DNA from: a virus | Lineage: Duplodnaviria > Caudoviricetes | Virus record (IMG/VR): IMGVR_UViG_3300032167_000004 | Coordinates: 128,001 to 192,000 of that record | Reading direction: 5' to 3' (one strand) | Length of the DNA stretch: 64,000 nucleotides | Shown here: positions 31,239-63,193 of the stretch, piece after piece | How the letters are laid out: every line of letters starts with the position of its first letter | Numbering within the stretch: position 1 is the first letter of the stretch | The notes under the pieces: model-generated | What the model was told of the DNA's origin: nothing | Database searches by the model: none | Seen by the model: only the letters and a program-made list of their open reading frames with translations | Translations under genes and position numbers: made by a program

Positions 31239-33076
31239 TTAAATTTTAATAAGTTTAACAGGAATACCAGTTTTCCCTGTACTAATCATTCTTTTACCTT
31301 TACTTAATCTAGGTAATTCTGCTAATTCCTCAGTATCAATAACTTCTACACTATTCTTACAATATAATTTAAATTTTTCATTACCTCTAATAGTCTGAAT
31401 TGTAAAGATACTATCACCATCATTCAATGTAATAATTCGCATAGGATCATTTGCTCTCTTTTTATTGACAAATGTATCAATAGGAGATTTCTTAACAACA
31501 CCATTATTAGTAATTACTAAGAGATATTTATCTTTAGGATTAATAATATCAAGACCAATGATTTCTTCACCATTATCTAAATTCATAGCTTTTACGCCAG
31601 AACTCATTCGTCCAGTTTCTCTAATTTCTTCAGAATTAAATCTAATTCCAAATCCATTATTGTTATATACTAAGATTTCAGATTCACCAAGCAATGTTTT
31701 TACACATACTAAACTATCATCATCTTTCACAATTAATCCTAATAATTCATTTCTCATATTAGTATACGCAGAGGCTAAAGTTTTCTTAATAAGACCATTC
31801 TTAGTAATCATTAAGAAATATACAGGATCTTTAATTTTTTCAATAATTTCATCTGTAGGTTTAACTTTTACAGTAACAATATTACCACTTAGATTGCTAC
31901 AGTATTCTTTCAATGAGTGACCTTCACTATTAAGAACACAACCCTGTACGTTGTATACTGATAACTTATTAATTTTACCATTATCTTCAAATAATAATAA
32001 GTCATTAGTATTTCTACATTTAATTACTTCGATAGGAATATCTCCTTTTCCGATAAGTCCAATGTCCTTGACATTATCAGGAAGTTTCTTAATCATTCCA
32101 TTCTTAGTAATTACAATTAAATGACCACTATCTTTAACTTTTACTTCATTATTTATAGTAATAATTTTACTGCGTCTTTCTTCACCAAATAATTTTATTC
32201 CTTCTTTTAATTCATCAATAATAATCTTATCGATTTTCTTAGCAGAACGAACAATCTTATTTAATTTTTCAACAGTCTTATCAATTTCTTCTTTTTCTTT
32301 AATATACTTTTTATATGCTTCTTTACTGAAAGCATTTAGTCTCATATCAGAAATTGTTTCAGCCTGTAAAGAAGTGATACCATATTCCTTCATCAGTCTA
32401 GAAATTATTTCTTTTCTATTTTCAGATTTCTTAATAATAGACATAGTCTTTTCAGCATTATCTTTATTAAGAATAAATAACATAATTTCCAGAATATGTT
32501 GTCTTTCTTTAGCAGTCATTAATTGAGTATTGAAGATACAACGCTTGGTCTCTCTTCTAAAATCGATCCAAGTCTGTAATACAGATTTAATATTATAATC
32601 ATTATCTGCATAATCTTCAATTAATTTAAAATTAACATTAAAAGTTTTTTCCATATTTGTCTTGCTATAAATCATATTTACAACAGTATATGGATCAACT
32701 TCTTTCTTAAGAAAAATCTGATAATGCATATTATTAAATTCAGTCATATCTTTGAAATCTCTCATCATATTAGATTTGCCATTATTTAATAATTCAAAGA
32801 TAGGTCTCTTTAATTTTTCCCAAGAAGTCATTAAAGGAGTAGATCTAATATTTAAGATATTATTATCTTCATCAATTTCAATAACACCTCTCATTTTAAA
32901 TCTACCTTTACCAGTTTTACAAATCTCAGGGAATTGACCCTCATCAACGATATATGCACCAGAAGATGAATCTGGATATAGCATGACAACATCAATATCA
33001 GGATTTTCAATTAAATCAATCGTTGCTTCTAAAACTTCCTTTAGGTTATACGTACATATCGACGTTGATAAACCAT
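31239..33076 (-). CDS. gyrA: DNA gyrase/topoisomerase II subunit A, exon 2 (spliced product 798 aa)
   Basis: Frame open upstream of the listed ATG as (Y)GLSTSICTYNLKEVLEA, equivalent to GyrA GMATNIPPHNLxEV; QAETISDMRL; C-terminal beta-pinwheel repeats (ITKNGLIKK, GRMSSGVKAM). Confidence 0.9.
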
Positions 33077-34037
33077 CTTATATGTTTAAATAAGTTTGTA
33101 ATTCTTATCCCTTTAAATTTTAAAGCTCTATATTACTATAGAGAACAGACTATATCATCAACCTATATACTGTTACCATATATAGGTTGCTCTCCATTTC
33201 CATCTTACAATTAAGATGTACTCTACTCAGTTACTCTCATAAGTATTTCTCTTATGATACCTTTTCGATAGTCGTTGAACCTTCCTTATATTTATTTACA
33301 ATATTAGGGTGTCGATCCCCTTTTCTTAAATGAGTTATTAAAGCTGTTAATCTAGTGTTATCTTGATCAATATATTTATCTAAAATATAACACTTTATAT
33401 AATCATTTTTGTATTTATATACATATATCATTTGACATAGTTCATCAATAAAATCATCACTATATAGTTTGTTACCTCCACCATTACTATGATAACCATT
33501 TTCAACAGCATCCATTTGGTTTAAGTAATTATTACTCCATTCTAGATTTTCATAATAATTTTCTAGTGAATCATTATTACGATGATGTACAAAATCAAAT
33601 TCATCAGGGTTAGGATTGGGAACAAATTCCCAAGCAACTAATCTATGTATATTAACATCAACATATTTTCGCTTTTTATCAACTTTATCAGACTTTATTA
33701 ATACTACTTGCAAATATGATCTAGTTTGACCATTATCTCTAACTTGAGTTTTTATTGCAGGTTTTAGTATTTTCTTTGTCTTTTTACTATAAACTCTACC
33801 ATGATTACTAATTAAATATGTATTAGGTTTAACAGTAGGGTATGTGACATATTTCCATACTTCAGGTAATTTTATGAAAATATATAACATTTTTATATCA
33901 TCTCCTTTCATTTAATATTTTTTCGACATTTATAATTTATAAAATATAAGGCTTGGCTGCTGATTATCCATATAGGATGTTCCAGCAATTAAGAGAGTTT
34001 TCTGTATATATTACATATACAGGGACTAGTTAATTTA
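33077..34037 (-). mobile_element. Group I intron (IA-like) in gyrA
   Basis: P1 GGAU|U paired with AGUCC (U·G at splice site); core AATTGCTGGAA, AATCAGCAGCCAAG, GTTCAACGACTA, GATATAGTCT; terminal G; splicing restores GIG-Y-GLST in frame. Confidence 0.9.
33252..33911 (-). CDS. Intron-encoded NUMOD4-HNH homing endonuclease (I-HmuI-like)
   Basis: EVWK..YLISNHGRVYS (NUMOD4); IHRLVAWEF..VHHRNND..N...NLEW (HNH); the end (EGSTTIE) overlaps the intron R element; likely start 33890. Confidence 0.9.
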   Translation of the reverse strand: MKGDDIKMLYIFIKLPEVWKYVTYPTVKPNTYLISNHGRVYSKKTKKILKPAIKTQVRDNGQTRSYLQVVLIKSDKVDKKRKYVDVNIHRLVAWEFVPNPNPDEFDFVHHRNNDSLENYYENLEWSNNYLNQMDAVENGYHSNGGGNKLYSDDFIDELCQMIYVYKYKNDYIKCYILDKYIDQDNTRLTALITHLRKGDRHPNIVNKYKEGSTTIEKVS

Positions 34038-34596
34038 ATCCAATTCCAAATGTATTATTAATCATCACATTAGGATATTTAGCAGGTAAATATTCCGGCT
34101 CAACCATAGTTCCTAAATAATTTAATTTAGTATTGACAATTTTATCGTTATATTCTTCGAAGAAACATTTATACGCATAATGTGTAAGTTTAGCTTCAAT
34201 ATATCGACCATCGGCAGCAGGAGCACCTGCAGGATCACCAAAGTTACCATAACCATATATAGTACATTGAATATTATTCCAAGGTTGAGCTAATTTTACT
34301 AATGTATCTTCTACAGCAGAATCACCGTGAGGATGATAATTTAATACATTACCTACAATACTTTTAACTTTTGTGGTTTCTCCATCATATTTTAAACCCA
34401 TCTTATACATGGTATAAAGAATTCTTCTTTCACCAGGTTTTAAACCATCTACGACAACTGGAATGTGTCGAACAAGATTTGTATTAGCACCAAAAATTTG
34501 CATATAAGATGAACATGCATCTGCAATATTAACAGTTTCTATATTAGAACTATAAGTTTCTACACTTACTTTATTATTTTTATTTTTTTCCTTCAT
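34038..34596 (-). CDS. gyrA: DNA gyrase/topoisomerase II subunit A, exon 1
   Basis: RHIP..DGLKPGERRILY, YHPHGDSA, GNFGD, RYIEA (catalytic Tyr), EPEYLPAKYP. Confidence 0.92.
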
Positions 34597-52208: not shown

Positions 52209-53099
52209 TCATTTTCTTTTGGAAATTTCATTCATAAATTGTGCTTGTGCGGTGCAAATTTGCTGTAAAGGAATATTCATAGTGGTAGATAGTTTACAGC
52301 TATCCAATTTAGTAAAGAGCTTCTTATCGTTCAAAGATAAATTGATAAGTTTTTTAGCTGCAAATTTAGAGTATACTTTGGTGCCATATTTATTTGTACT
52401 AACAATTTTGAAAGGTTTAGATTCAGGTTCCTTATTTTCAATTTCATCTTTGTTAGAAGTTTCAGATTCATTTTTAAGTATACGTTTCCACCGATATGCT
52501 GTACTTACAGCAATATTAAATTTTTTGGCGATTTGTTGAATGTCGGAATCGATAATAAATTTCTTATCATCATCGCTTAAAGTATTAATATTTAAACGCG
52601 GCTTTTTATCAGAGGATACAGTAGTTATACTGTCTTCTTTCTTAGGAGTAGGTTTATTGATAGTTTCTGGAGGAGAAGTCTTTTCAGAAATAGAGATAAT
52701 TTTATCTGTACTATATTTGAAATATTTAGCCTCCATTTCTAAGTTGTTTTCTAAACCTAAATAAATTTTAAGAGCAAGATCAATTTCGTCCATAACTCTT
52801 TCGGTTAAACATCCTAAGAAATTCGTTAATGATGATGCTGGTACTGGACGAATTTCATGTACAAGTGCAGTTGATAATTTATTCAATTCTAAATTAACAC
52901 ATACACCACTCTTTTGCGATTCAGATGCCGAGAATGGAATTACCGTAACAAATTTTCCTCGAACATTGACATTATTAATAACCAAAACTGGTCTATCTCC
53001 AATAGTTATTTGCATGTCTCTTTCATCATGAGTCCAGCTATCTTTCATTAACCACACTTGACCTTTTTTATAAGTTAAAAGATCTAATTTCTTACACAT
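52209..53099 (-). CDS. PemK/MazF-like endoribonuclease domain fused to a C-terminal HTH
   Basis: KKGQVW..GDRPVLVI..VTVIPFS..IR.V..L..FLG.L...MDEIDLALKIYLGL; IAKKFNIAVSTAYRW (HTH). Confidence 0.75.
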   Translation of the reverse strand: MCKKLDLLTYKKGQVWLMKDSWTHDERDMQITIGDRPVLVINNVNVRGKFVTVIPFSASESQKSGVCVNLELNKLSTALVHEIRPVPASSLTNFLGCLTERVMDEIDLALKIYLGLENNLEMEAKYFKYSTDKIISISEKTSPPETINKPTPKKEDSITTVSSDKKPRLNINTLSDDDKKFIIDSDIQQIAKKFNIAVSTAYRWKRILKNESETSNKDEIENKEPESKPFKIVSTNKYGTKVYSKFAAKKLINLSLNDKKLFTKLDSCKLSTTMNIPLQQICTAQAQFMNEISKRK

Positions 53100-53773: not shown

Positions 53774-53786
53774 AAATATATATTAT
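53774..53786 (+). promoter_or_regulatory. Early (virion RNAP)-type promoter AAATATATATTAT upstream of tubulin
   Basis: The AA(A/G/T)TATATATTAT motif recurs in sense orientation upstream of 11 genes in the window. Confidence 0.65.
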
Positions 53787-53854: not shown

Positions 53855-53879
53855 ATGATTAAAATTTGTACTCTTGGCT
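53855..53879 (+). CDS. phuZ: Phage tubulin exon 1 (25 nt)
   Basis: RBS AAGGAG, ATG ATT AAA ATT TGT ACT CTT GGC T; joins exon 2 to give MIKICTLGFGNCGGQI (tubulin T1 GxGxxG). Confidence 0.8.
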
Positions 53880-54156
53880 TAATAATATAGGCCCTATACA
53901 TAGTGATATGTATAGCAAACTCTCTTAATTGCTGGAAACTCCTTAGAGCCTAAAGTACCAAAGTGTAAAAATCTTTAGGATTGGACAATCAGCAGCCAAG
54001 ACTCTTATTGTAAGAGTAAGGTTCAACGATCATACCCTTAAGTAAAGGGATAATAGAGAGCATCTTTATTTTAAAGATGATGATATGATCTGTGCTCTAT
54101 AGAAATATAGAGAACTTCGTCTGTATTAACTAGCTAATAGTTTTATCTTCTTTTTC

Positions 54157-54169
54157 AAATATATATTAT
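54157..54169 (+). promoter_or_regulatory. Early-type promoter AAATATATATTAT inside the intron, driving tnpB
   Basis: Exact match to the motif at 30370, 53774, 34677(-) and 53179(-); RBS AAGGAGG follows. Confidence 0.65.
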
Positions 54170-54207
54170 TTATTTAATATTTATATAAAGAAAGGAGGAT
54201 AAATCTT

Positions 54208-55446
54208 ATGTATAGAACTTTTAAACGTCAACTAATTAATTTATCTGAAGAAGATAAACAGTATTTATTCGATAATATGTGGTATAGACATCAACTATAC
54301 AACTTAGGTATTGAATGTATATTAGATTATCGTAAAGAGAATCCTAAATTACCTAGCAGTACATTATTATATCACATGATGAAAGAAAAAATATCTGATA
54401 AGTATAATAAAAATTATTATGCTGAAGGTATTGAGAGTGTTGTACGTGTTGATATATCTAGAGCAATTCGAAATACATATAATAATTATAAAAAATATGA
54501 TGATATTTCTGAACAATTTAGATTTCATCGATTTAATAAATATTATAGAAGTTTCGGATTTAGTGCTAGATCATATATTTCTTATGGTAAAATGAGTTCT
54601 AGAGTTAAATCTATGACTAATAATTCTATCACTATTCGTTTTAGAAAAGGTATTATTAAAACTTTTTATCATAATGAATTATCATGGAATAATAAGAATC
54701 ATCCTTATGAATTTGATATGTATGATGTAAAAGAGATCCATTTTCTATATGATCATGGTAAATTCTATATCATTCTCATGTGTGAGGTTAATTTTAAAAA
54801 TCCTTATAGATATAGAGATGATAGAATGAATCTTGCAGGTATTGATTTAGGAGAAAGAAATCCAGCGATGATATATGACGGTAAAGAATATATCAAGGTT
54901 AAGTTTCCTGATAAGAAGATTAAAAATATTCAAAACAGAATTAATGTTATGAATATAGCCTTATCAGGAAAAGTATATGGATCTAATAACTATTATAAGC
55001 TTAAAAATAAAATAGATAAGCTTTATAGAAAACAGGTTAATATACGTAAAGACTGGAGACATCAGAATTCTTATAAGATAACTAATTTATTTAAGACTAT
55101 AGTTGTAGATGAATTCCATAATTATATTATTACTAAAGATTCTAAAGAAAATATTAATAGTAAAGGAAAAAGAATTATTAATAGAGTAATGGAAGGTAGA
55201 GGTATATCTTATTTTATTGAAACATTAAAAGATATGTCAAATAAATATCGATGTGGATATTATTTAGCAGAACCTAATACCACTAGAACTTGCTCTAAAT
55301 GCGGTTTTATTAATGATCCAATACCTTTAAGTCAAGAATATTTAGTATGCGATAATTGTGGAAAGAAAATTCATCGAGATAAGAATGCTGCAAAGAATTG
55401 TTATAATCAACATAAGAGATATTATCATATTAATGTGTATATCTAA
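54208..55446 (+). CDS. tnpB: TnpB (IS200/IS605/IS607 OrfB) RNA-guided RuvC nuclease
   Basis: AGIDLGERN (RuvC-I), IVVDEF (RuvC-II), TTRTCSKCG..CDNCG zinc ribbon, HRDKNAAKN (RuvC-III); 412 aa. Confidence 0.9.
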   Translation: MYRTFKRQLINLSEEDKQYLFDNMWYRHQLYNLGIECILDYRKENPKLPSSTLLYHMMKEKISDKYNKNYYAEGIESVVRVDISRAIRNTYNNYKKYDDISEQFRFHRFNKYYRSFGFSARSYISYGKMSSRVKSMTNNSITIRFRKGIIKTFYHNELSWNNKNHPYEFDMYDVKEIHFLYDHGKFYIILMCEVNFKNPYRYRDDRMNLAGIDLGERNPAMIYDGKEYIKVKFPDKKIKNIQNRINVMNIALSGKVYGSNNYYKLKNKIDKLYRKQVNIRKDWRHQNSYKITNLFKTIVVDEFHNYIITKDSKENINSKGKRIINRVMEGRGISYFIETLKDMSNKYRCGYYLAEPNTTRTCSKCGFINDPIPLSQEYLVCDNCGKKIHRDKNAAKNCYNQHKRYYHINVYI

Positions 55447-55536
55447 AAGTTGAATATAATGTAGCGTATAGGTTGATGCGTAATAGCTAGTTAAAAGAAG
55501 TTGTATTAGAGTAACGATCTAATATAAACACAACAG

Positions 55537-56642
55537 TTGGTAATTGTGGTGGTCAGATCACTGATCTGGCAATGGAACAGTATCAGATTCCTGGTATTGC
55601 AATCAATAGCTCTCAGAAAGATTTAGATAATATTACAAATGTTACTAAGTTTGTTTTGGGTGATTCTCTTGGTAGTGGAAAGAATAGAGATGTAGCAAAA
55701 AACTTTATTAAGAAGCATGTATCTGTTATGCTTCAGCAAGATAAACTTAATAGTATGATTAGTGAAAATGATATTGTTTTCATTATTTCTTCTATTGGTG
55801 GTGGTACCGGTTCTGGTATGGCTCCGATTACTTGTGATATTCTTTCAAGAAAATATCCTGAAAAGAGATTTATTCTTATTGAAGTTTATCCTCCTATTGG
55901 TGAGTCTCTTGCTGCACAGCAGAATAGTCTTGACTATCTTAAGGAAGTAAATAATAATATGCCCAATGTATGTTACATTGCATATGATAATAATAAGTAT
56001 ACTGATCTTACAACTCCTGAAATGATGCAGAAAGTAAACAATGAAATTGTTGATATGCTTCCTGTATTTAGAGGAGACTATTTCTATTCCACTCCTTTCA
56101 ATTCTATTGATGATAAGGATCTTCTGAGTATTGTTGGTACTCCTGGACGTATGGCTGTGTATATTCTTGATAATATTAAAGAAAAAGATTTCGATAATAA
56201 ATCTATTGAAGATGCTATGATCGATATTATTAAGAATAAGTCTGCTAACGTCGAACTTGATCGTGATAAGATTGTTAAGAAAATTGGTATTGTAACGAAT
56301 TTGAATACTAAACTTAATAAACTTATCGATCCCAATTATTCTAAGATTCAAGAATTAGTCGGTACTCCTATTGAATTATTTGAGCATGTATATATGACAA
56401 GTTCTGATAATGAAACTAATAGAATGATTCTTATTCTGGCTGGTTTATCTGTTCCTGATGACAGATTAACAAAGATGGTTCAGCGTATTGAATCTGGTTT
56501 GGAAGAACTTGCACATACTAAGGAATCTTCTGTATTGGGCAATACAGACACTGTCAGCATGGTTAAAGACCTGAGATCTAATAATATGCAGCAGAGCAGT
56601 GAATTTAGCCTCGAAGAACTTTTTGGTAAGTATGATAGCTAA
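55537..56642 (+). CDS. phuZ: Phage tubulin/FtsZ-family GTPase (PhuZ/TubZ-like), exon 2; spliced product 376 aa
   Basis: GNCGGQI, AINSS, GSGKNR, SIGGGTGSG tubulin signature, YDNN, IDDKDL. Confidence 0.9.
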
Positions 56643-58811: not shown

Positions 58812-59138
58812 ATGATTGATTTATTTAAACTTAAGCATAAAGAAAATGATGCTACTAGAATTTACAAAATTTATAAGAATATTGATAAGGAGGAAAGAAT
58901 CAATTATATTGTACATTCAGAGTATAAAAGAATGATTTTTCTAGCTGAAAAAGCTGCTTTAAATGGAGAAGTTTCATTTATATTTGATTTATCAATAGAA
59001 GACCTAGATATGAAAAATTTTAATGTTATAATGAATAAATTTATGACATTAATATCAGAAAATGGTTTTCGATATTCAAGAGAGATCGTAATAAAAGAAA
59101 ATAGATTTACTATCTATTTTTCAGAATTAAGTGTATGA
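58812..59138 (+). CDS. Hypothetical early protein
   Basis: 108 aa; RBS GGAGG; early motif 58780-58792. Confidence 0.6.
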   Translation: MIDLFKLKHKENDATRIYKIYKNIDKEERINYIVHSEYKRMIFLAEKAALNGEVSFIFDLSIEDLDMKNFNVIMNKFMTLISENGFRYSREIVIKENRFTIYFSELSV

Positions 59139-59151
59139 AGGAGAACTAATA

Positions 59152-60318
59152 ATGGGAAACAGATTATTGGATAAACTTAGAGAAAAAGATAAGAAGGGTT
59201 TATTTACACCTTCTCAGGTTTCAGTAAATTATCCTACAGGATTTGCTCCTTTTGATTATTTAAATGGATATAAAGTAAGAGTTATGGACCTTGATGAAAA
59301 ATTAGTTGGATCATATTCTGCTATTGGTTTGACTGGCGGAACGTTTGTAACTATTATCGGTAAATCAGGTGTTGCAAAAACAACCTGGACTATTCAAACA
59401 GCATTTAATATGGTTAAAAATTTCAATGAAGATGCTTTTATTATGTGTTATGATTTGGAACAAGCTCTAAATTATACACGAATTAAAAATATTACTGGAG
59501 CTACACAAGAAGAATTAGATAAGAAATTTATTCTTCGACAAGAAAAGAATTATATTGAAGATATATTTGATTCTATCATTAGTATTGCTAATGCTAAAGA
59601 AAATGATAAAGAATCTTTTATGTATGATACTGGTAATGTAGATGAATTTAATCGACCTATCAGAGCATATGTACCTACAGTTATTATTATTGACTCTATT
59701 CCTACTTTAGCTTCTAAGGAAACTGAAGGTGAAGAAGAAATGAAGGGTCAGACTGATGCAATGAAAGCTGCAAAGCAGTTAAAACAGTTTTATAGTAGAT
59801 TAATGCCTATTATCAAAACTTATAATATTACTGTATTTGCAATCAATCATATTAACCAAAAGATTGAAATTAATCCCTTCGCTAAGACACAGAATCAAAT
59901 AATGTACCTTGGACAAGATGAAAGCTTACCGGGAGGTGTTGCACCTATATATTATGCAAACACTCTCATTAAATTTGTATCTTCTTCTAAGTTTAAAGAA
60001 GAAGACGATGGATTCGATGGGTTCTTAGTCAAAGCAATGTTAGTTAAATCTAGAAGTAATAAAGCAAATCAATTCTGCAATTTAGTATATAATCAAACTC
60101 ATGGATTTGATCCTATTTTGACTTTATTCCAGTTTGCAACCGATAATGGTATGGTTGATGGTCGTAATCCATATAAATATTTTAAAATTAATAAAGATGT
60201 TAAATTTGATTCTAGAAAATTTAGAGAAGAATTTAATACTAATGATAAAGTTAAAAATACTCTGATGGAAGCAGTTACTCCTGAATTAGAGAAACTTCTT
60301 TCATCTGTTGAAAAATAA
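59152..60318 (+). CDS. recA: RecA/UvsX recombinase
   Basis: PTGFAPFD, GKSGVAKTT, DLEQAL, IIDSIPTL, INHI, PGG..YYAN, KSR. Confidence 0.88.
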   Translation: MGNRLLDKLREKDKKGLFTPSQVSVNYPTGFAPFDYLNGYKVRVMDLDEKLVGSYSAIGLTGGTFVTIIGKSGVAKTTWTIQTAFNMVKNFNEDAFIMCYDLEQALNYTRIKNITGATQEELDKKFILRQEKNYIEDIFDSIISIANAKENDKESFMYDTGNVDEFNRPIRAYVPTVIIIDSIPTLASKETEGEEEMKGQTDAMKAAKQLKQFYSRLMPIIKTYNITVFAINHINQKIEINPFAKTQNQIMYLGQDESLPGGVAPIYYANTLIKFVSSSKFKEEDDGFDGFLVKAMLVKSRSNKANQFCNLVYNQTHGFDPILTLFQFATDNGMVDGRNPYKYFKINKDVKFDSRKFREEFNTNDKVKNTLMEAVTPELEKLLSSVEK

Positions 60319-60628: not shown

Positions 60629-60709
60629 AAAATGAAATATATACAGTATAGAGGAAATAAGAAACCTCTATACTGTATTTTATTAATAAAAGGAAGGAAA
60701 AGAAAACTA

Positions 60710-62482
60710 ATGAGCACACTTAATCTTAAAGAAGCATTAGAGCAAAAAGAAAAAGAATATAGTTTCTGTGATGATTTGTTTGGTATGACATTACTTACAA
60801 ATCCAGGATACATTAGTTCTAGTAGATCTCTAATGTTTACTAGTCATCTTAGACAGTTTGTTAATCTTGTCAATCCTGATATTCCTAAAGTATTTACTAA
60901 CTATGAAAATAGCGTTGGTAAATTATCTACAGGATATTATGAAGCAAAGCATAATTATGAAGTATATGCAAAAATTCCTAGATTTACAACAGAAGGATTA
61001 GATAATCATCTTTATTTGATGTTTATTTATGATAAGAAACATGATAAATATGATGTAATTACAAAAAGTGTTGTAGAAAATCTAACAGAAAAGTTTGGAT
61101 ATGGATATAATACTGAAGTAATGGATAATAAAGATGTTGGTGATGAAATTGATAAAGGAGAAGTTCTTTATAGATCAACATCTTATGATGAAGATATGAA
61201 CTATCGTTATGGTACAAATGTTAAAGTTATGTATGCATTAGATAATAACACGATTGAAGATGCTATCATTTGTTCCGAATCCTTTGCTAAAAGACTTGTT
61301 AGTAAAGAGATTGAAGAGGTTAAAGTTAGTCTTAATGACAATGACTTACTTTGTAATATCTATGGTGATAGTTCTAATTATAAAACTTTCCCTGATATTG
61401 GTGAATACACAAAAGATAAAATTCTTTGTGCAAAGCGTCGTATTCATAATAGTCAGGTTTTATATGATTTGAAGAAATCTAATCTTAGAAAGATTAATTT
61501 TATGAATGATAACTTATATTATATTGATGGTAAGATTGTTGATATAGTTATCTATTCAAATAAAACATTGGATGAAATTCCTGATAATACTTTTAATAAT
61601 CAAATTAGAAAATATCTAATTATGCAAAATGAATTTTATCAAAAAGTATATGACACTTGTAAAGAGATTATTAAAAGTGGTAGTAAGTATAGTAATGATA
61701 TTGCTTATTATTTTAAGAAAGCAAAAGATATATTAGATGAAAATACTAAATGGAGAGAAGAATCCTCTGTATTTAGTAATATTGTTATTGAATTTCTTGT
61801 TGAAAGAGATTCACCTCTTACTATTGGACAAAAGATTTCTGGACGACAGGGTAATAAGGGTGTCGTAAGTAAAATTTTACCAGATGATCAAATGCCATAT
61901 CTTGAAAATGGGGAAAAGGTAGAAGTGATTTTAAATAGTTTGGGTGTAATCAACAGACTCAACCCTATGCAGATATACGAGCTTAGCATTAATTTTATCT
62001 GTAATCGAGTTGTAGATAAATTAAAAACTTATACTACACTAAAAGAAAAAGAAACATTATTCTTTGATATTATTAAACGATTCAATGAAGATGAAGAGAA
62101 AGTATTAAAGATTTATTATAAAAATTTAAAGACTAAAGAAAAGAAAGAATTCTTTGAAGATATCTTTAAGAATGGTATTTATATTCATATGCGTCCTTTC
62201 TGGGAAGAAAAAGAAGCATTATTTGATATCATTAGAGATATTTATAAAGATTATGATTTTATTAAACCTGTTGATGTTTATATTAATAAATGGGGTAGAA
62301 AGATTAAGATTATGAAACCTTTGATTGTTAGTGATCTTTATATGATTAAACTGAAGCAATCTTCTAAGAAAGGTTTCTCTGCAAGATCTACAGGTTCTCT
62401 TAATAGAAGAGGTATTCCTGATAAGAGTTATAAGAATAAAGTTCATCAAGATCTGTATTCTAGCACACCGATACGCATCGGC
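60710..62482 (+). CDS. Phage RNA polymerase beta subunit, C-terminal half (probably non-virion RNAP), exon 1
   Basis: [61 protein letters not shown]. Confidence 0.9.
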
Positions 62483-62716
62483 TTGATCGAGAACCGATGT
62501 AAAACTCTCTTAATTGCTGGAAAATCCTTATAGGACAATCAGCAGCCAAGACTTATTTTAGTAAGTAAGGTTCAACGACTATAAAAATTATAAATATAAT
62601 TTTAATGGAGAGCTTCTTATAAAAAGAATGAAGATATAGTCTAATCTATATAGATAATATATAGTAGTTATTAAGTTAACAGTATAGAATTAATCATTCT
62701 ATATGAATATATAATG
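62483..62716 (+). mobile_element. ORF-less 234-nt group I intron in RNAP beta
   Basis: Same core as the other two introns (AAACTCTCTTAATTGCTGGAA, GACAATCAGCAGCCAAG, AAGGTTCAACGACTA, AAGATATAGTCT); removal gives RIG-DQE in frame. Confidence 0.88.
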
Positions 62717-63193
62717 GATCAAGAAAATATAAACTCACTTATCGGTGTTGACCCTGAAACTGTTGCCAAGTTACATCTATATTATAGATCTAGTGTAATT
62801 GGTAGAAGAGATATCGGTAAACAATTAGCTAGTACAATTAAAACTCTTAAAGATTTTAAGAAGAGTGGTAATTTTACTAATAGAAATGTAGAAATTCTTC
62901 AAGCATATTTTAAAGCTATGGGTATCAGAATTAAATTCTTGGGAGAATATGAGATTCCTATTTATACTGATACATTAGAATCTTTTGAAACTGATACTGC
63001 TTATTTTATTGGTACTAGATCTCAGTATGAAGATGAAGTATTAAAAGAAAAGATTCGTAAGAAATATAGTGAAGATGTATGTTTTGTTGGTACAAATGAA
63101 GAATTTGAAGAATTACTTGAAAAAGAATTCGAATATGAAAAACTTCATAGAGATTACTATTGTATTGATATTAACGTTGAAGAAGATAAATAA
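62717..63193 (+). CDS. RNA polymerase beta subunit exon 2 (spliced product about 749 aa)
   Basis: DQENINSLIG..YRSS..RNVEILQAYFKAMGIRIKF matches the RpoB C-terminus. Confidence 0.82.
   Translation, partial: DQENINSLIGVDPETVAKLHLYYRSSVIGRRDIGKQLASTIKTLKDFKKSGNFTNRNVEILQAYFKAMGIRIKFLGEYEIPIYTDTLESFETDTAYFIGTRSQYEDEVLKEKIRKKYSEDVCFVGTNEEFEELLEKEFEYEKLHRDYYCIDINVEEDK

What the first reader, a model, noticed from the sequence alone, without database searches (positions are those of the whole stretch)
53855..56642. Group I intron in the phage tubulin gene carries a transposase-less TnpB where a homing endonuclease would sit: candidate RNA-guided homing intron
Seen in sequence: a 25-nt exon 1 (MIKICTLG-) and exon 2 from 55537 splice to ...LGFGNCGGQI, rebuilding the tubulin GxGxxG loop. 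The 1657-nt interruption has a full group I core with U·G in P1 and a terminal G. A 412-aa TnpB (RuvC-I D, acidic RuvC-II VVDEF, RuvC-III D, zinc ribbon) lies in the loop of a long-range P9.1 stem (AACTTC 54113 and TTAACTAGCTA 54126 pair with TAGCTAGTTAA 55484 and GAAGTT 55497). No Y1 or serine transposase is present, and the intron 3' end looks like those of the other two introns rather than an IS end. Established: TnpB is guided by an omegaRNA taken from the element 3' end plus flank; known IStrons are bacterial chromosomal intron-IS fusions mobilised by TnpA; phage introns normally home with HNH/GIY-YIG enzymes, as the gyrA intron here does. Inference: TnpB has been co-opted as a programmable homing nuclease. 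A guide from exon 2 (TTGGTAATTGTGGTGGTCAG) next to an exon-1-derived TAM (..TGGCT) would cut intronless tubulin alleles of co-infecting relatives, with repair by phage RecA/SbcD.
Basis: partly seen in the sequence, partly recalled or inferred. Interest (0 to 1): 0.93.

Follow-up and report, generated by a model that had tools for sequence, protein, structure and literature searches.

The report
TnpB-only IStron in phage tubulin

Summary
A 1,657-nt insert (53880-55536) splits a tubulin gene after codon 8. Uninterrupted alleles in sister phages (about 89% nt identity) have exactly the predicted exon1|exon2 junction. The first 243 nt are a complete group I core (RF00028, 83.4 bits). An intact 412-aa TnpB sits in the loop of a long-range stem.

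Group I intron plus TnpB, with the TAM at the end of exon 1 and the guide at the start of exon 2, is the published IStron design. TnpB-only IStrons and IStrons in phages have been described, and homing by TnpA-less IStrons has been proposed in print. This scan has also noted phage TnpB-IStrons on other DNA (84 notes, at least 23 genomes).

New here:
- A small metagenome-only clade (11 TnpBs, 30-57% identical) inserted in different phage genes, none with tnpA.
- A hairpin after tnpB whose loop pairs with the 6-8 nt before the 3' splice site, in four covarying versions, like the omegaRNA pseudoknot.
- The last 35 nt are ordinary intron parts, shared with an ORF-less intron.
- A phage promoter motif between the ribozyme and tnpB.
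- An empty allele with a 20/20 guide match.

Splicing, omegaRNA, TAM and cleavage remain untested.

The parts
53774..53786 (+). Promoter-like motif AAATATATATTAT upstream of the tubulin gene
   Evidence: 13 copies in the window (1 mismatch allowed) against 4.5 expected; 0 of 100 shuffles reach 13. By my reading against the ORF list, 11 lie strand-matched 30-85 nt before an ORF start.
53855..53879 (+). Tubulin exon 1 (25 nt, MIKICTLG plus first base of Phe). Its last bases TGGCT (53875-53879) pair in P1 and are the candidate TAM.
   Evidence: The RBS and ATG are conserved in the intronless alleles L020-L023.
53880..55536 (+). The whole inserted element: a group I intron carrying tnpB (TnpA-less IStron), 1,657 nt
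   Evidence: Absent, base for base, from L020, L021, L022, L023 and L013.
53870..54112 (+). Group I ribozyme core P1-P9 (IA2-like)
   Evidence: RF00028, 83.4 bits, model positions 1-253. The core aligns with the introns upstream of the related TnpBs (alignment A1).
54113..54136 (+). 5' strand of the long-range stem that encloses the tnpB cassette (54113-54118 and 54126-54136)
   Evidence: Equivalent stems with unrelated sequences occur in L013 (26 bp), L161 (15 bp), L016 (14 bp), L012 and L019.
54157..54169 (+). Internal copy of the promoter-like motif, downstream of the ribozyme and of the 5' stem strand, 39 nt before tnpB, followed by RBS AAAGGAGG
   Evidence: A similar block (TTTCAAATATATATTA) precedes tnpB in L012 and L019.
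54208..55446 (+). tnpB, 412 aa, RNA-guided nuclease family
55464..55481 (+). SL1, a hairpin just after the tnpB stop. Loop AGGUUG is at 55470-55475; GUUG (55472-55475) is the candidate PK-1.
   Evidence: The stem covaries among window, L012, L019 and L013. The loop is complementary to the intron tail in four covarying versions. SL1 is absent from the ORF-less intron L027.
55484..55502 (+). 3' strand of the long-range stem
55504..55524 (+). SL3, a 7-bp hairpin with invariant loop UAACGA (P9.2-like). It is an intron part, equivalent in position to SL5 of the CboIStron omegaRNA.
   Evidence: 97.9% of cells paired, 6 of 7 pairs with compensatory changes, 0 of 500 shuffles reach the observed score. 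Also present in the ORF-less intron L027.
55525..55536 (+). Intron tail TAAACACAACAG ending in the terminal G. CAAC (55531-55534) is the candidate PK-2.
55537..55556 (+). Predicted guide template and homing target: the first 20 nt of exon 2, encoding the tubulin GNCGGQ loop
   Evidence: Identical 20/20 in intronless L020 and L021; 2 mismatches in L022. Unique in the phage record.
55537..56642 (+). Tubulin exon 2
   Evidence: Pfam Tubulin 2.5e-15. About 120 full-length homologues of 372-378 aa.

Best explanation
This is a TnpA-less IStron: an IA2-type self-splicing group I intron into which a tnpB cassette (own promoter, RBS, ORF and a hairpin, SL1) is built, in the loop of a long-range stem between P9 and the last intron hairpin.

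Transcripts from the tubulin promoter fold the ribozyme. The long-range stem brings the 3' end to the core, and splicing restores tubulin.

Transcripts from the internal promoter lack the ribozyme and the 5' stem strand. They encode TnpB and carry SL1, a linker, SL3, the tail and exon 2. There the SL1 loop pairs with the tail (pseudoknot) to form an omegaRNA scaffold, whose guide is the first 16-20 nt of exon 2.

TnpB with this RNA would cut intronless tubulin alleles (exon-1 end TGGCT or TGGAT as TAM, then TTGGTAATTG...) in co-infecting relatives. Recombinational repair from the intron-bearing genome would then copy the element in.

Shown here: the anatomy, precise insertion, conservation, covariation, and the existence of empty alleles. 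Inferred: splicing, transcription from the internal promoter, omegaRNA binding, TAM, cleavage and homing.
For: - Precise insertion, with empty alleles matching the guide 20/20.
- Full group I core.
- Full-length TnpB fold, with catalytic and zinc residues invariant across 11 clade members of 30-57% identity.
- Same layout in every relative: the IA2 core aligns in the five elements whose 5' flank is held, and the 3' parts recur in most (L018 degenerate, L016 and L162 without the UAACGA hairpin). They sit in different genes, including RNA polymerase beta, NAD ligase and ppk.
- SL1 loop against tail complementarity of 4, 5, 6 and 7 nt in four sequence versions: GUUG:CAAC, GGUAU:AUACC, AUACGU:ACGUAU, UAGUAUA:UAUACUA. 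Cognate sum is 25 against a non-cognate mean of 2.85 per pair. Only 1 of 120 permutations and 0 of 20,000 loop shuffles reach it.
- This mirrors PK-1/PK-2 of the CboIStron omegaRNA, where PK-2 and the last stem-loop are also needed for splicing.
- The promoter motif is enriched and lies before genes.
- No tnpA in the element or in the record.
Against: - No RNA or cleavage data of any kind.
- The scaffold from SL1 to the splice site is short (73 nt). Its last 35 nt are ordinary intron parts, found in an ORF-less intron (L027).
- No Rfam omegaRNA-type family (for example RAGATH-18) matches.
- The RuvC-II acid is Asp instead of the canonical Glu.
- The G at -3 and T at -1 shared by exon-1 ends may reflect P1 pairing rather than a TAM; the ORF-less L027 also sits after GGCT.
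- I defined the loops by eye before scoring them.
- One relative (L162) has only 3 complementary bases, and L018 has a degenerate 3' end.
- Only one lineage carries the intron at this site, so no homing event is documented.
- A third of the phage genome was not seen.
Confidence: 0.65

Rival explanations
1. Classical non-autonomous IStron. The element moves or moved by a TnpA supplied in trans (host, helper element, or the unseen third of the phage). TnpB only restores it after excision (cut-and-copy), rather than spreading it between phages.
For: This is how characterised IStrons work. The clade occupies many unrelated genes, so something moved it to new sites. The record is only 67% complete.
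Against: No Y1 or serine recombinase in 165.8 kb and a single tnpB copy. None of the eight related elements has room for, or a remnant of, tnpA. The ends fit neither group A (TTGAT...TCAG) nor group B (GG...CGG). The exact TnpB sequence was always seen in the same tubulin context.
Confidence: 0.12
2. Nested cassette with an internal guide. The tnpB module is its own mobile unit ending just after SL1. Its guide is the adjacent intron sequence (the 3' stem strand), so it homes into tnpB-less copies of the intron, not into intronless genes.
For: The segment right after SL1 is the most variable part of the 3' RNA. ORF-less relatives of the intron exist (L027).
Against: The SL1 loop covaries with the tail next to the 3' splice site, so the scaffold reaches the exon boundary. 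The variable segment covaries with the strand upstream of the ORF, as a closing stem would. L027 has no such stem to serve as a target.
Confidence: 0.08
3. TnpB no longer acts as a homing nuclease. It is kept as a regulator of splicing, or as a weapon that only destroys competing intronless phages, or it is a recent passenger on its way to decay.
For: TnpB binding represses splicing in the CboIStron. RuvC-II is Asp, not Glu. L018 shows a decayed 3' end. Competitor killing by phage homing nucleases is known.
Against: All three acidic residues and the zinc ribbon are invariant over 30-57% divergence. The pseudoknot is maintained by compensatory change. Cutting an empty allele in a mixed infection with phage recombination genes present (RecA-like gene at 59131-60318) would give homing as a by-product.
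Confidence: 0.15

Closest known systems
CboIStron and group B (IS607-type) IStrons, including CbISt3/CbISt4 of C. botulinum phages c-st and D-1873 (PMC4227781; 10.1101/2023.11.20.567912; PMC13521648)
   Same: - IA2 group I core at the 5' end with tnpB downstream.
- A long AU-rich inverted-repeat stem encloses the ORF.
- The omegaRNA at the 3' end has PK-1 in an upstream hairpin and PK-2 in bases also needed for splicing.
- TAM is the end of exon 1 and the guide is the start of exon 2.
- G-rich exon-1 end.
- Occurs on phage genomes.
   Different: - No tnpA or remnant anywhere in the clade.
- The last exon base is the canonical U, not G.
- The element ends in CAG or UAG, not CGG.
- tnpB has its own promoter-like motif, whereas the native CboIStron uses a single promoter.
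- The TnpB is only distantly related (IS607_TnpB model 66 bits against a cut-off of 350).
CdISt1 / CdiIStrons, group A (IS200/IS605-type) IStrons of Clostridioides difficile
   Same: Canonical U at the 5' splice site inside a paired P1. The 3' end is of the ...CAG type. Many copies lack a working TnpA. The intron is of IA2 type.
   Different: [quoted passage not shown] The closing stem is long and AU-rich rather than 6-10 bp. No tnpA fragments. One copy per genome, in a lytic-type giant phage.
CsISt1 of Clostridium sporogenes (ORF-B-only IStron, Tourasse 2014)
   Same: Carries TnpB only and ends in CAG.
   Different: It is bacterial and inserted after AG. I made no sequence comparison with it here.
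Phage group I introns with protein homing endonucleases (T4 td/I-TevI type; the NUMOD4 ORF in this phage's own gyrA intron)
   Same: The nuclease gene sits in a peripheral loop of an intron in a conserved site of an essential gene. Distribution among related phages is sporadic. Spread is expected through co-infection and recombinational repair.
   Different: Target recognition would be by an RNA guide copied from the flanking exon, so specificity follows the element to any new site. Producing the guide competes with splicing.

Membership tests
IStron (group I intron + IS200/IS605/IS607-type element) | Self-splicing group I ribozyme forming the 5' part of the element | tested here: met
   RF00028, 83.4 bits, full model, at 53870-54112. 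Splicing itself was not tested.
IStron (group I intron + IS200/IS605/IS607-type element) | ORF B (TnpB) encoded inside the element, downstream of the ribozyme core | tested here: met
   ORF 54208-55446; Pfam, NCBIfam and fold matches.
IStron (group I intron + IS200/IS605/IS607-type element) | Element ends coincide with the splice sites; the empty site equals the spliced junction, with no target duplication | tested here: met
   Intronless alleles L020, L021 and L022 carry exactly exon1|exon2.
IStron (group I intron + IS200/IS605/IS607-type element) | Inverted-repeat stem enclosing the ORF region | tested here: met
   6 + 11 bp here. Stems of 13-26 bp with unrelated sequences occur in relatives.
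IStron (group I intron + IS200/IS605/IS607-type element) | ORF A (TnpA, Y1 or serine) or a remnant of it | tested here: not met
   None in the element and none in the 165.8-kb record.
IStron (group I intron + IS200/IS605/IS607-type element) | [quoted passage not shown] | tested here: inconclusive
   The loop-tail pairing covaries in four versions. There are no RNA data and no Rfam match.
IStron group A | Insertion after TTGAT, ATTAT or TTTAT; 3' end TCAG | tested here: not met
   Insertion is after TGGCT and the end is ACAG.
IStron group B | Insertion after GG with G as the last exon base; 3' end CGG | tested here: not met
   The last exon base is U, paired U.G in P1; the end is CAG.
TnpB (RNA-guided nuclease, RuvC D-E-D plus zinc ribbon) | RuvC-I Asp, RuvC-II Glu, RuvC-III Asp, and a CxxC...CxxC zinc ribbon | tested here: inconclusive
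   D213 and D391 align with ISDra2 D191 and D361, and the four Cys are invariant. The RuvC-II position holds an invariant Asp (D301) in all 11 clade members. Activity of this triad is untested.
Tubulin/FtsZ (phage tubulin) | GTPase domain with the N-terminal glycine-rich loop restored after splicing | tested here: met
   PF00091 2.5e-15. The spliced N-terminus matches uninterrupted homologues.

The most novel reading that the evidence does not exclude
A whole clade of phage IStrons has given up transposase altogether and lives as RNA-guided homing introns. A promoter placed between ribozyme and tnpB makes a non-splicing transcript that supplies both TnpB and the exon-derived guide, which resolves the splicing-versus-guide conflict described for bacterial IStrons. 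Because the guide is copied from whatever exon follows the element, any rare ectopic insertion (for example by reverse splicing) would create a new homing specificity at once. That would explain how one clade came to sit in tubulin, RNA polymerase, ligase and other genes.
Probability: 0.4. Interest if true: 0.7.

Novelty: new member of a known kind. Interest (0 to 1): 0.5.

Why it matters
IStrons and TnpB-guided homing are established, and homing by TnpA-less IStrons has so far only been proposed. This locus gives a clean natural test case:
- one copy, in an essential gene of a giant phage;
- no transposase in sight;
- a defined candidate guide;
- natural empty alleles that match it 20/20 (TAM-side TGGAT) or with two mismatches (TGGCT).

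The covarying pseudoknot and the shared intron hairpin show how an omegaRNA scaffold can be assembled from intron parts. The internal promoter suggests a way to separate guide production from splicing.

It would not change the field's picture. It would extend that picture to virus-to-virus spread and offers compact TnpB/omegaRNA pairs of about 410 aa and possibly under 100 nt.

Tried and rejected
- cmscan over the whole window and over 2 kb missed the tubulin intron core. It was found by the genome search and by a 291-nt scan, so blanks from wide scans of this AT-rich DNA are unreliable.
- Single-protein search for related loci for tubulin and TnpB found nothing. With the clade alignment, both viral and metagenome scans returned only generic TnpBs of at most 33% identity.
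- tblastn against isolated phages gave only hits below 33% identity.
- The 3'-end pattern scan of viral contigs gave 18 hits. All but L027 looked like chance matches inside coding sequence.
- RNA evidence: no RNA holder was listed for the stretch.
- No omegaRNA-type Rfam family matched the 3' region.
- The sigma-70 and terminator scans were at chance level.
- I considered a TAM consensus from five exon-1 ends (G at -3, T at -1). I do not claim it, because P1 pairing and the ORF-less L027 (also after GGCT) explain the same bases.
- P10 pairing with exon 2 is weak (1 bp by eye) and was not pursued.
- I did not compare directly with the c-st or CboIStron sequences.
Full report
**What is there**

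The window is part of a 165.8-kb IMG/VR virus record judged 67% complete. The phage carries tubulin, a multisubunit RNA polymerase beta gene, gyrA and a RecA-like gene.

At 53855 a strong RBS and ATG open a 25-nt exon, followed by an in-frame stop. At 55537 the frame resumes. Joining 53879 to 55537 gives MIKICTLGFGNCGGQI....

About 120 homologues of 372-378 aa are uninterrupted. Five of them were fetched as DNA:

| Locus | Relation to the window | Sequence at the site |
|---|---|---|
| L020 / L021 | 93% aa, 88.8% nt | CTTGGAT\|TTGGTAATTGTGGTGGTCAG |
| L022 | 91% aa | CTTGGCT\|TTGGTAATTGTGGAGGTCAA |
| L023, L013 | more distant | junction at the same place |

The 1,657-nt insert and its borders are therefore exact.

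**The ribozyme**

RF00028 matches 53870-54112 over its whole length (83.4 bits). P1 pairs exon GGCU with intron GGCC, with U.G at the splice site. The core resembles phage introns of AR9, PBS1 and Clostridioides phages. Wide cmscan runs missed it.

**The protein**

ORF 54208-55446 is a full-length TnpB:
- Pfam OrfB_IS605 and the TNB zinc ribbon.
- NCBIfam guided_TnpB over residues 10-397, at 92.5 bits, just under its 100-bit cut-off.
- AlphaFold model with pLDDT 83.7, matching ISDra2 and ISFba1 TnpB complexes.

Against ISDra2, D213 aligns with D191 and D391 with D361. In an alignment of 11 clade members (30-57% identity), D213, D301, D391 and four Cys are invariant. The RuvC-II acid is Asp, and the neighbouring E302 varies.

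**A family, not a one-off**

The exact protein occurs on at least 24 contigs. In all 24 contigs read the neighbouring genes are the same tubulin context (3 places shown, 21 similar). Eleven relatives form a small clade known only from metagenomes. Seven of them were fetched with their flanks:

| Locus | TnpB | Context |
|---|---|---|
| L012 | P0002 | exon 2 unidentified; an AAA ATPase gene lies downstream |
| L019 | P0003 | NAD-dependent DNA ligase |
| L161 | P0004 | unknown |
| L018 | P0005 | end of a polyphosphate kinase gene; 3' part degenerate |
| L013 | P0006 | small gene upstream of an intact tubulin |
| L162 / L163 | P0007 | unknown |
| L014 / L015 | P0008 | RNA polymerase beta |
| L016 / L017 | P0010 | unknown |

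Where the 5' flank is present, each has the same IA2 core (RF00028 102.7 and 80.8 bits in L018 and L014; alignment A1). Each also has a P1 that pairs with its own exon. None has space for tnpA.

**The 3' RNA**

After P9 the typical element runs in this order:
1. 5' strand of a long stem.
2. AT-rich spacer with RBS.
3. tnpB.
4. Hairpin SL1.
5. 3' strand of the stem.
6. Hairpin SL3, with invariant loop UAACGA.
7. A 10-12-nt tail.
8. The 3' splice site.

L016 and L162 lack the UAACGA hairpin, and L018's 3' part is degenerate.

The closing stems have unrelated sequences but are always complementary: window 6 + 11 bp, L013 26 bp, L161 15 bp, L016 14 bp. SL3 is strongly supported: 6 of 7 pairs show compensatory changes, and 0 of 500 shuffles reach the observed score.

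A pattern scan found an ORF-less intron (L027) with the same SL3 and tail but no SL1 and no closing stem. So the last 35 nt are intron parts, and tnpB plus SL1 is an insertion into the intron periphery.

**The pseudoknot**

The SL1 loop is complementary to tail positions about -2 to -8:

| Elements | SL1 loop : tail |
|---|---|
| window, L012, L019, L013 | GUUG : CAAC |
| L161 | GGUAU : AUACC |
| L014 | AUACGU : ACGUAU |
| L016 | UAGUAUA : UAUACUA |
| L162 | 3 nt only |

Cognate pairs sum to 25 nt, against a mean of 2.85 for non-cognate pairs. Only the true assignment among 120 permutations reaches that sum, and 0 of 20,000 loop shuffles do. The caveat is that I chose the loops by eye.

This is the arrangement reported for the CboIStron omegaRNA. 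PK-1 lies in an upstream hairpin that splicing does not need. PK-2 and the last stem-loop lie in bases that splicing does need. The guide follows directly in exon 2, and the pseudoknot represses splicing. It argues that the scaffold reaches the splice site, and so that the guide is exon 2.

**Internal promoter**

AAATATATATTAT occurs 13 times in the window against 4.5 expected, and 0 of 100 shuffles reach 13. Eleven copies sit 30-85 nt upstream of ORFs on the right strand. One precedes tubulin (53774) and one precedes tnpB (54157).

The tnpB copy lies downstream of the ribozyme and of the 5' stem strand. A transcript starting there could not splice and would leave the 3' strand free. This is inference; no transcript data exist.

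**Comparison with what is known**

- Tourasse 2014 lists phage IStrons, ORF-B-only IStrons, the enclosing inverted-repeat stem, and two boundary types.
- Zedaveinyte 2023 showed TAM plus exon-2-guided cutting of the empty joint and the conflict between splicing and guide production.
- A 2026 review says TnpA-less IStrons could spread by intron homing, including between co-infecting phages.

The present element fits the class. It fits neither boundary type: it sits after TGGCT, ends in ACAG, and has a canonical U at the 5' splice site.

This scan has repeatedly noted phage TnpB-IStrons elsewhere. My own look at Staphylococcus phage Stau2 found a probable divergent group I core (24.8 bits, below threshold) in front of its 'transposase'.

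**Verdict**

The mechanism is plausible and better supported than before, through the empty alleles, the pseudoknot covariation and the promoter motif. The kind of element is already known, and nothing functional has been shown. Interest is moderate.

Noticed in passing
window 31239-34596 (-): gyrA is in pieces. The N-terminal part is at 34030-34596 and the rest at 31239-32984. Between them lie an ORF with a NUMOD4 motif (33252-33911) and weak RF00028 matches at 33126-33349 and 33901-33996. This looks like an intron carrying a protein homing endonuclease.
   Followed up: partly
window 60632-63193 (+): An RNA polymerase beta-like gene (Rpb2_6, 1e-19) is split by a short ORF-less group I intron at 62460-62664 (RF00028, 76 bits). 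I did not fix its 3' splice site.
   Followed up: partly
window, 13 sites (e.g. 30370, 34677, 53179, 53774, 54157, 58780, 60322, 63260): The motif AAATATATATTAT is about three times over-represented and sits before genes on the matching strand. It is probably a promoter for one of the phage's own polymerases.
   Followed up: partly
window 52209-53099 (-): A 296-aa protein with an N-terminal PemK/MazF-like toxin domain (3.1e-10) and a weak HTH lies divergently upstream of the tubulin gene. It is conserved next to tubulin in L010, L011 and L023.
   Followed up: no
L027 1400-1750: An ORF-less group I intron in another viral contig, inserted after GGCGGCT. It shares the 5' start, the UAACGA hairpin and the tail AAACACAACAG with the tnpB-bearing introns, so it is a likely picture of the intron before it acquired tnpB.
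   Followed up: partly
L164 1547-1869 (Staphylococcus phage Stau2, KP881332.1): A sub-threshold but full-length RF00028 match (24.8 bits, E 2.4e-4) lies directly upstream of the annotated 'transposase' (a TnpB), between a hypothetical gene and a capsid gene. It is a probable IStron in a cultured lytic phage.
   Followed up: partly
L165 3210-3299 (Staphylococcus phage Romulus): An Rfam RAGATH-18 RNA (63.8 bits) lies right after a TnpB gene. So Rfam does hold at least one omegaRNA-like family; it does not match the window's element.
   Followed up: no
L014 7597-8237: The same 128-kb phage contig that has a tnpB-intron in RNA polymerase beta carries further group I intron matches (83.4 and 39.8 bits) next to an HNH_3 ORF.
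   Followed up: no
L018 1622-3400: An intron (RF00028, 102.7 bits) plus TnpB sits at the very end of a polyphosphate kinase gene. Its 3' part lacks SL1, SL3 and the tail. A 46-aa HATPase fragment and a tRNA follow. The copy is possibly decaying or rearranged.
   Followed up: no
window 55529-55551: The intron tail (CACAA) is complementary to exon-2 bases UUGUG at +10 to +14. RNAfold pairs them into a hairpin across the 3' splice site. The meaning is unknown.
   Followed up: no
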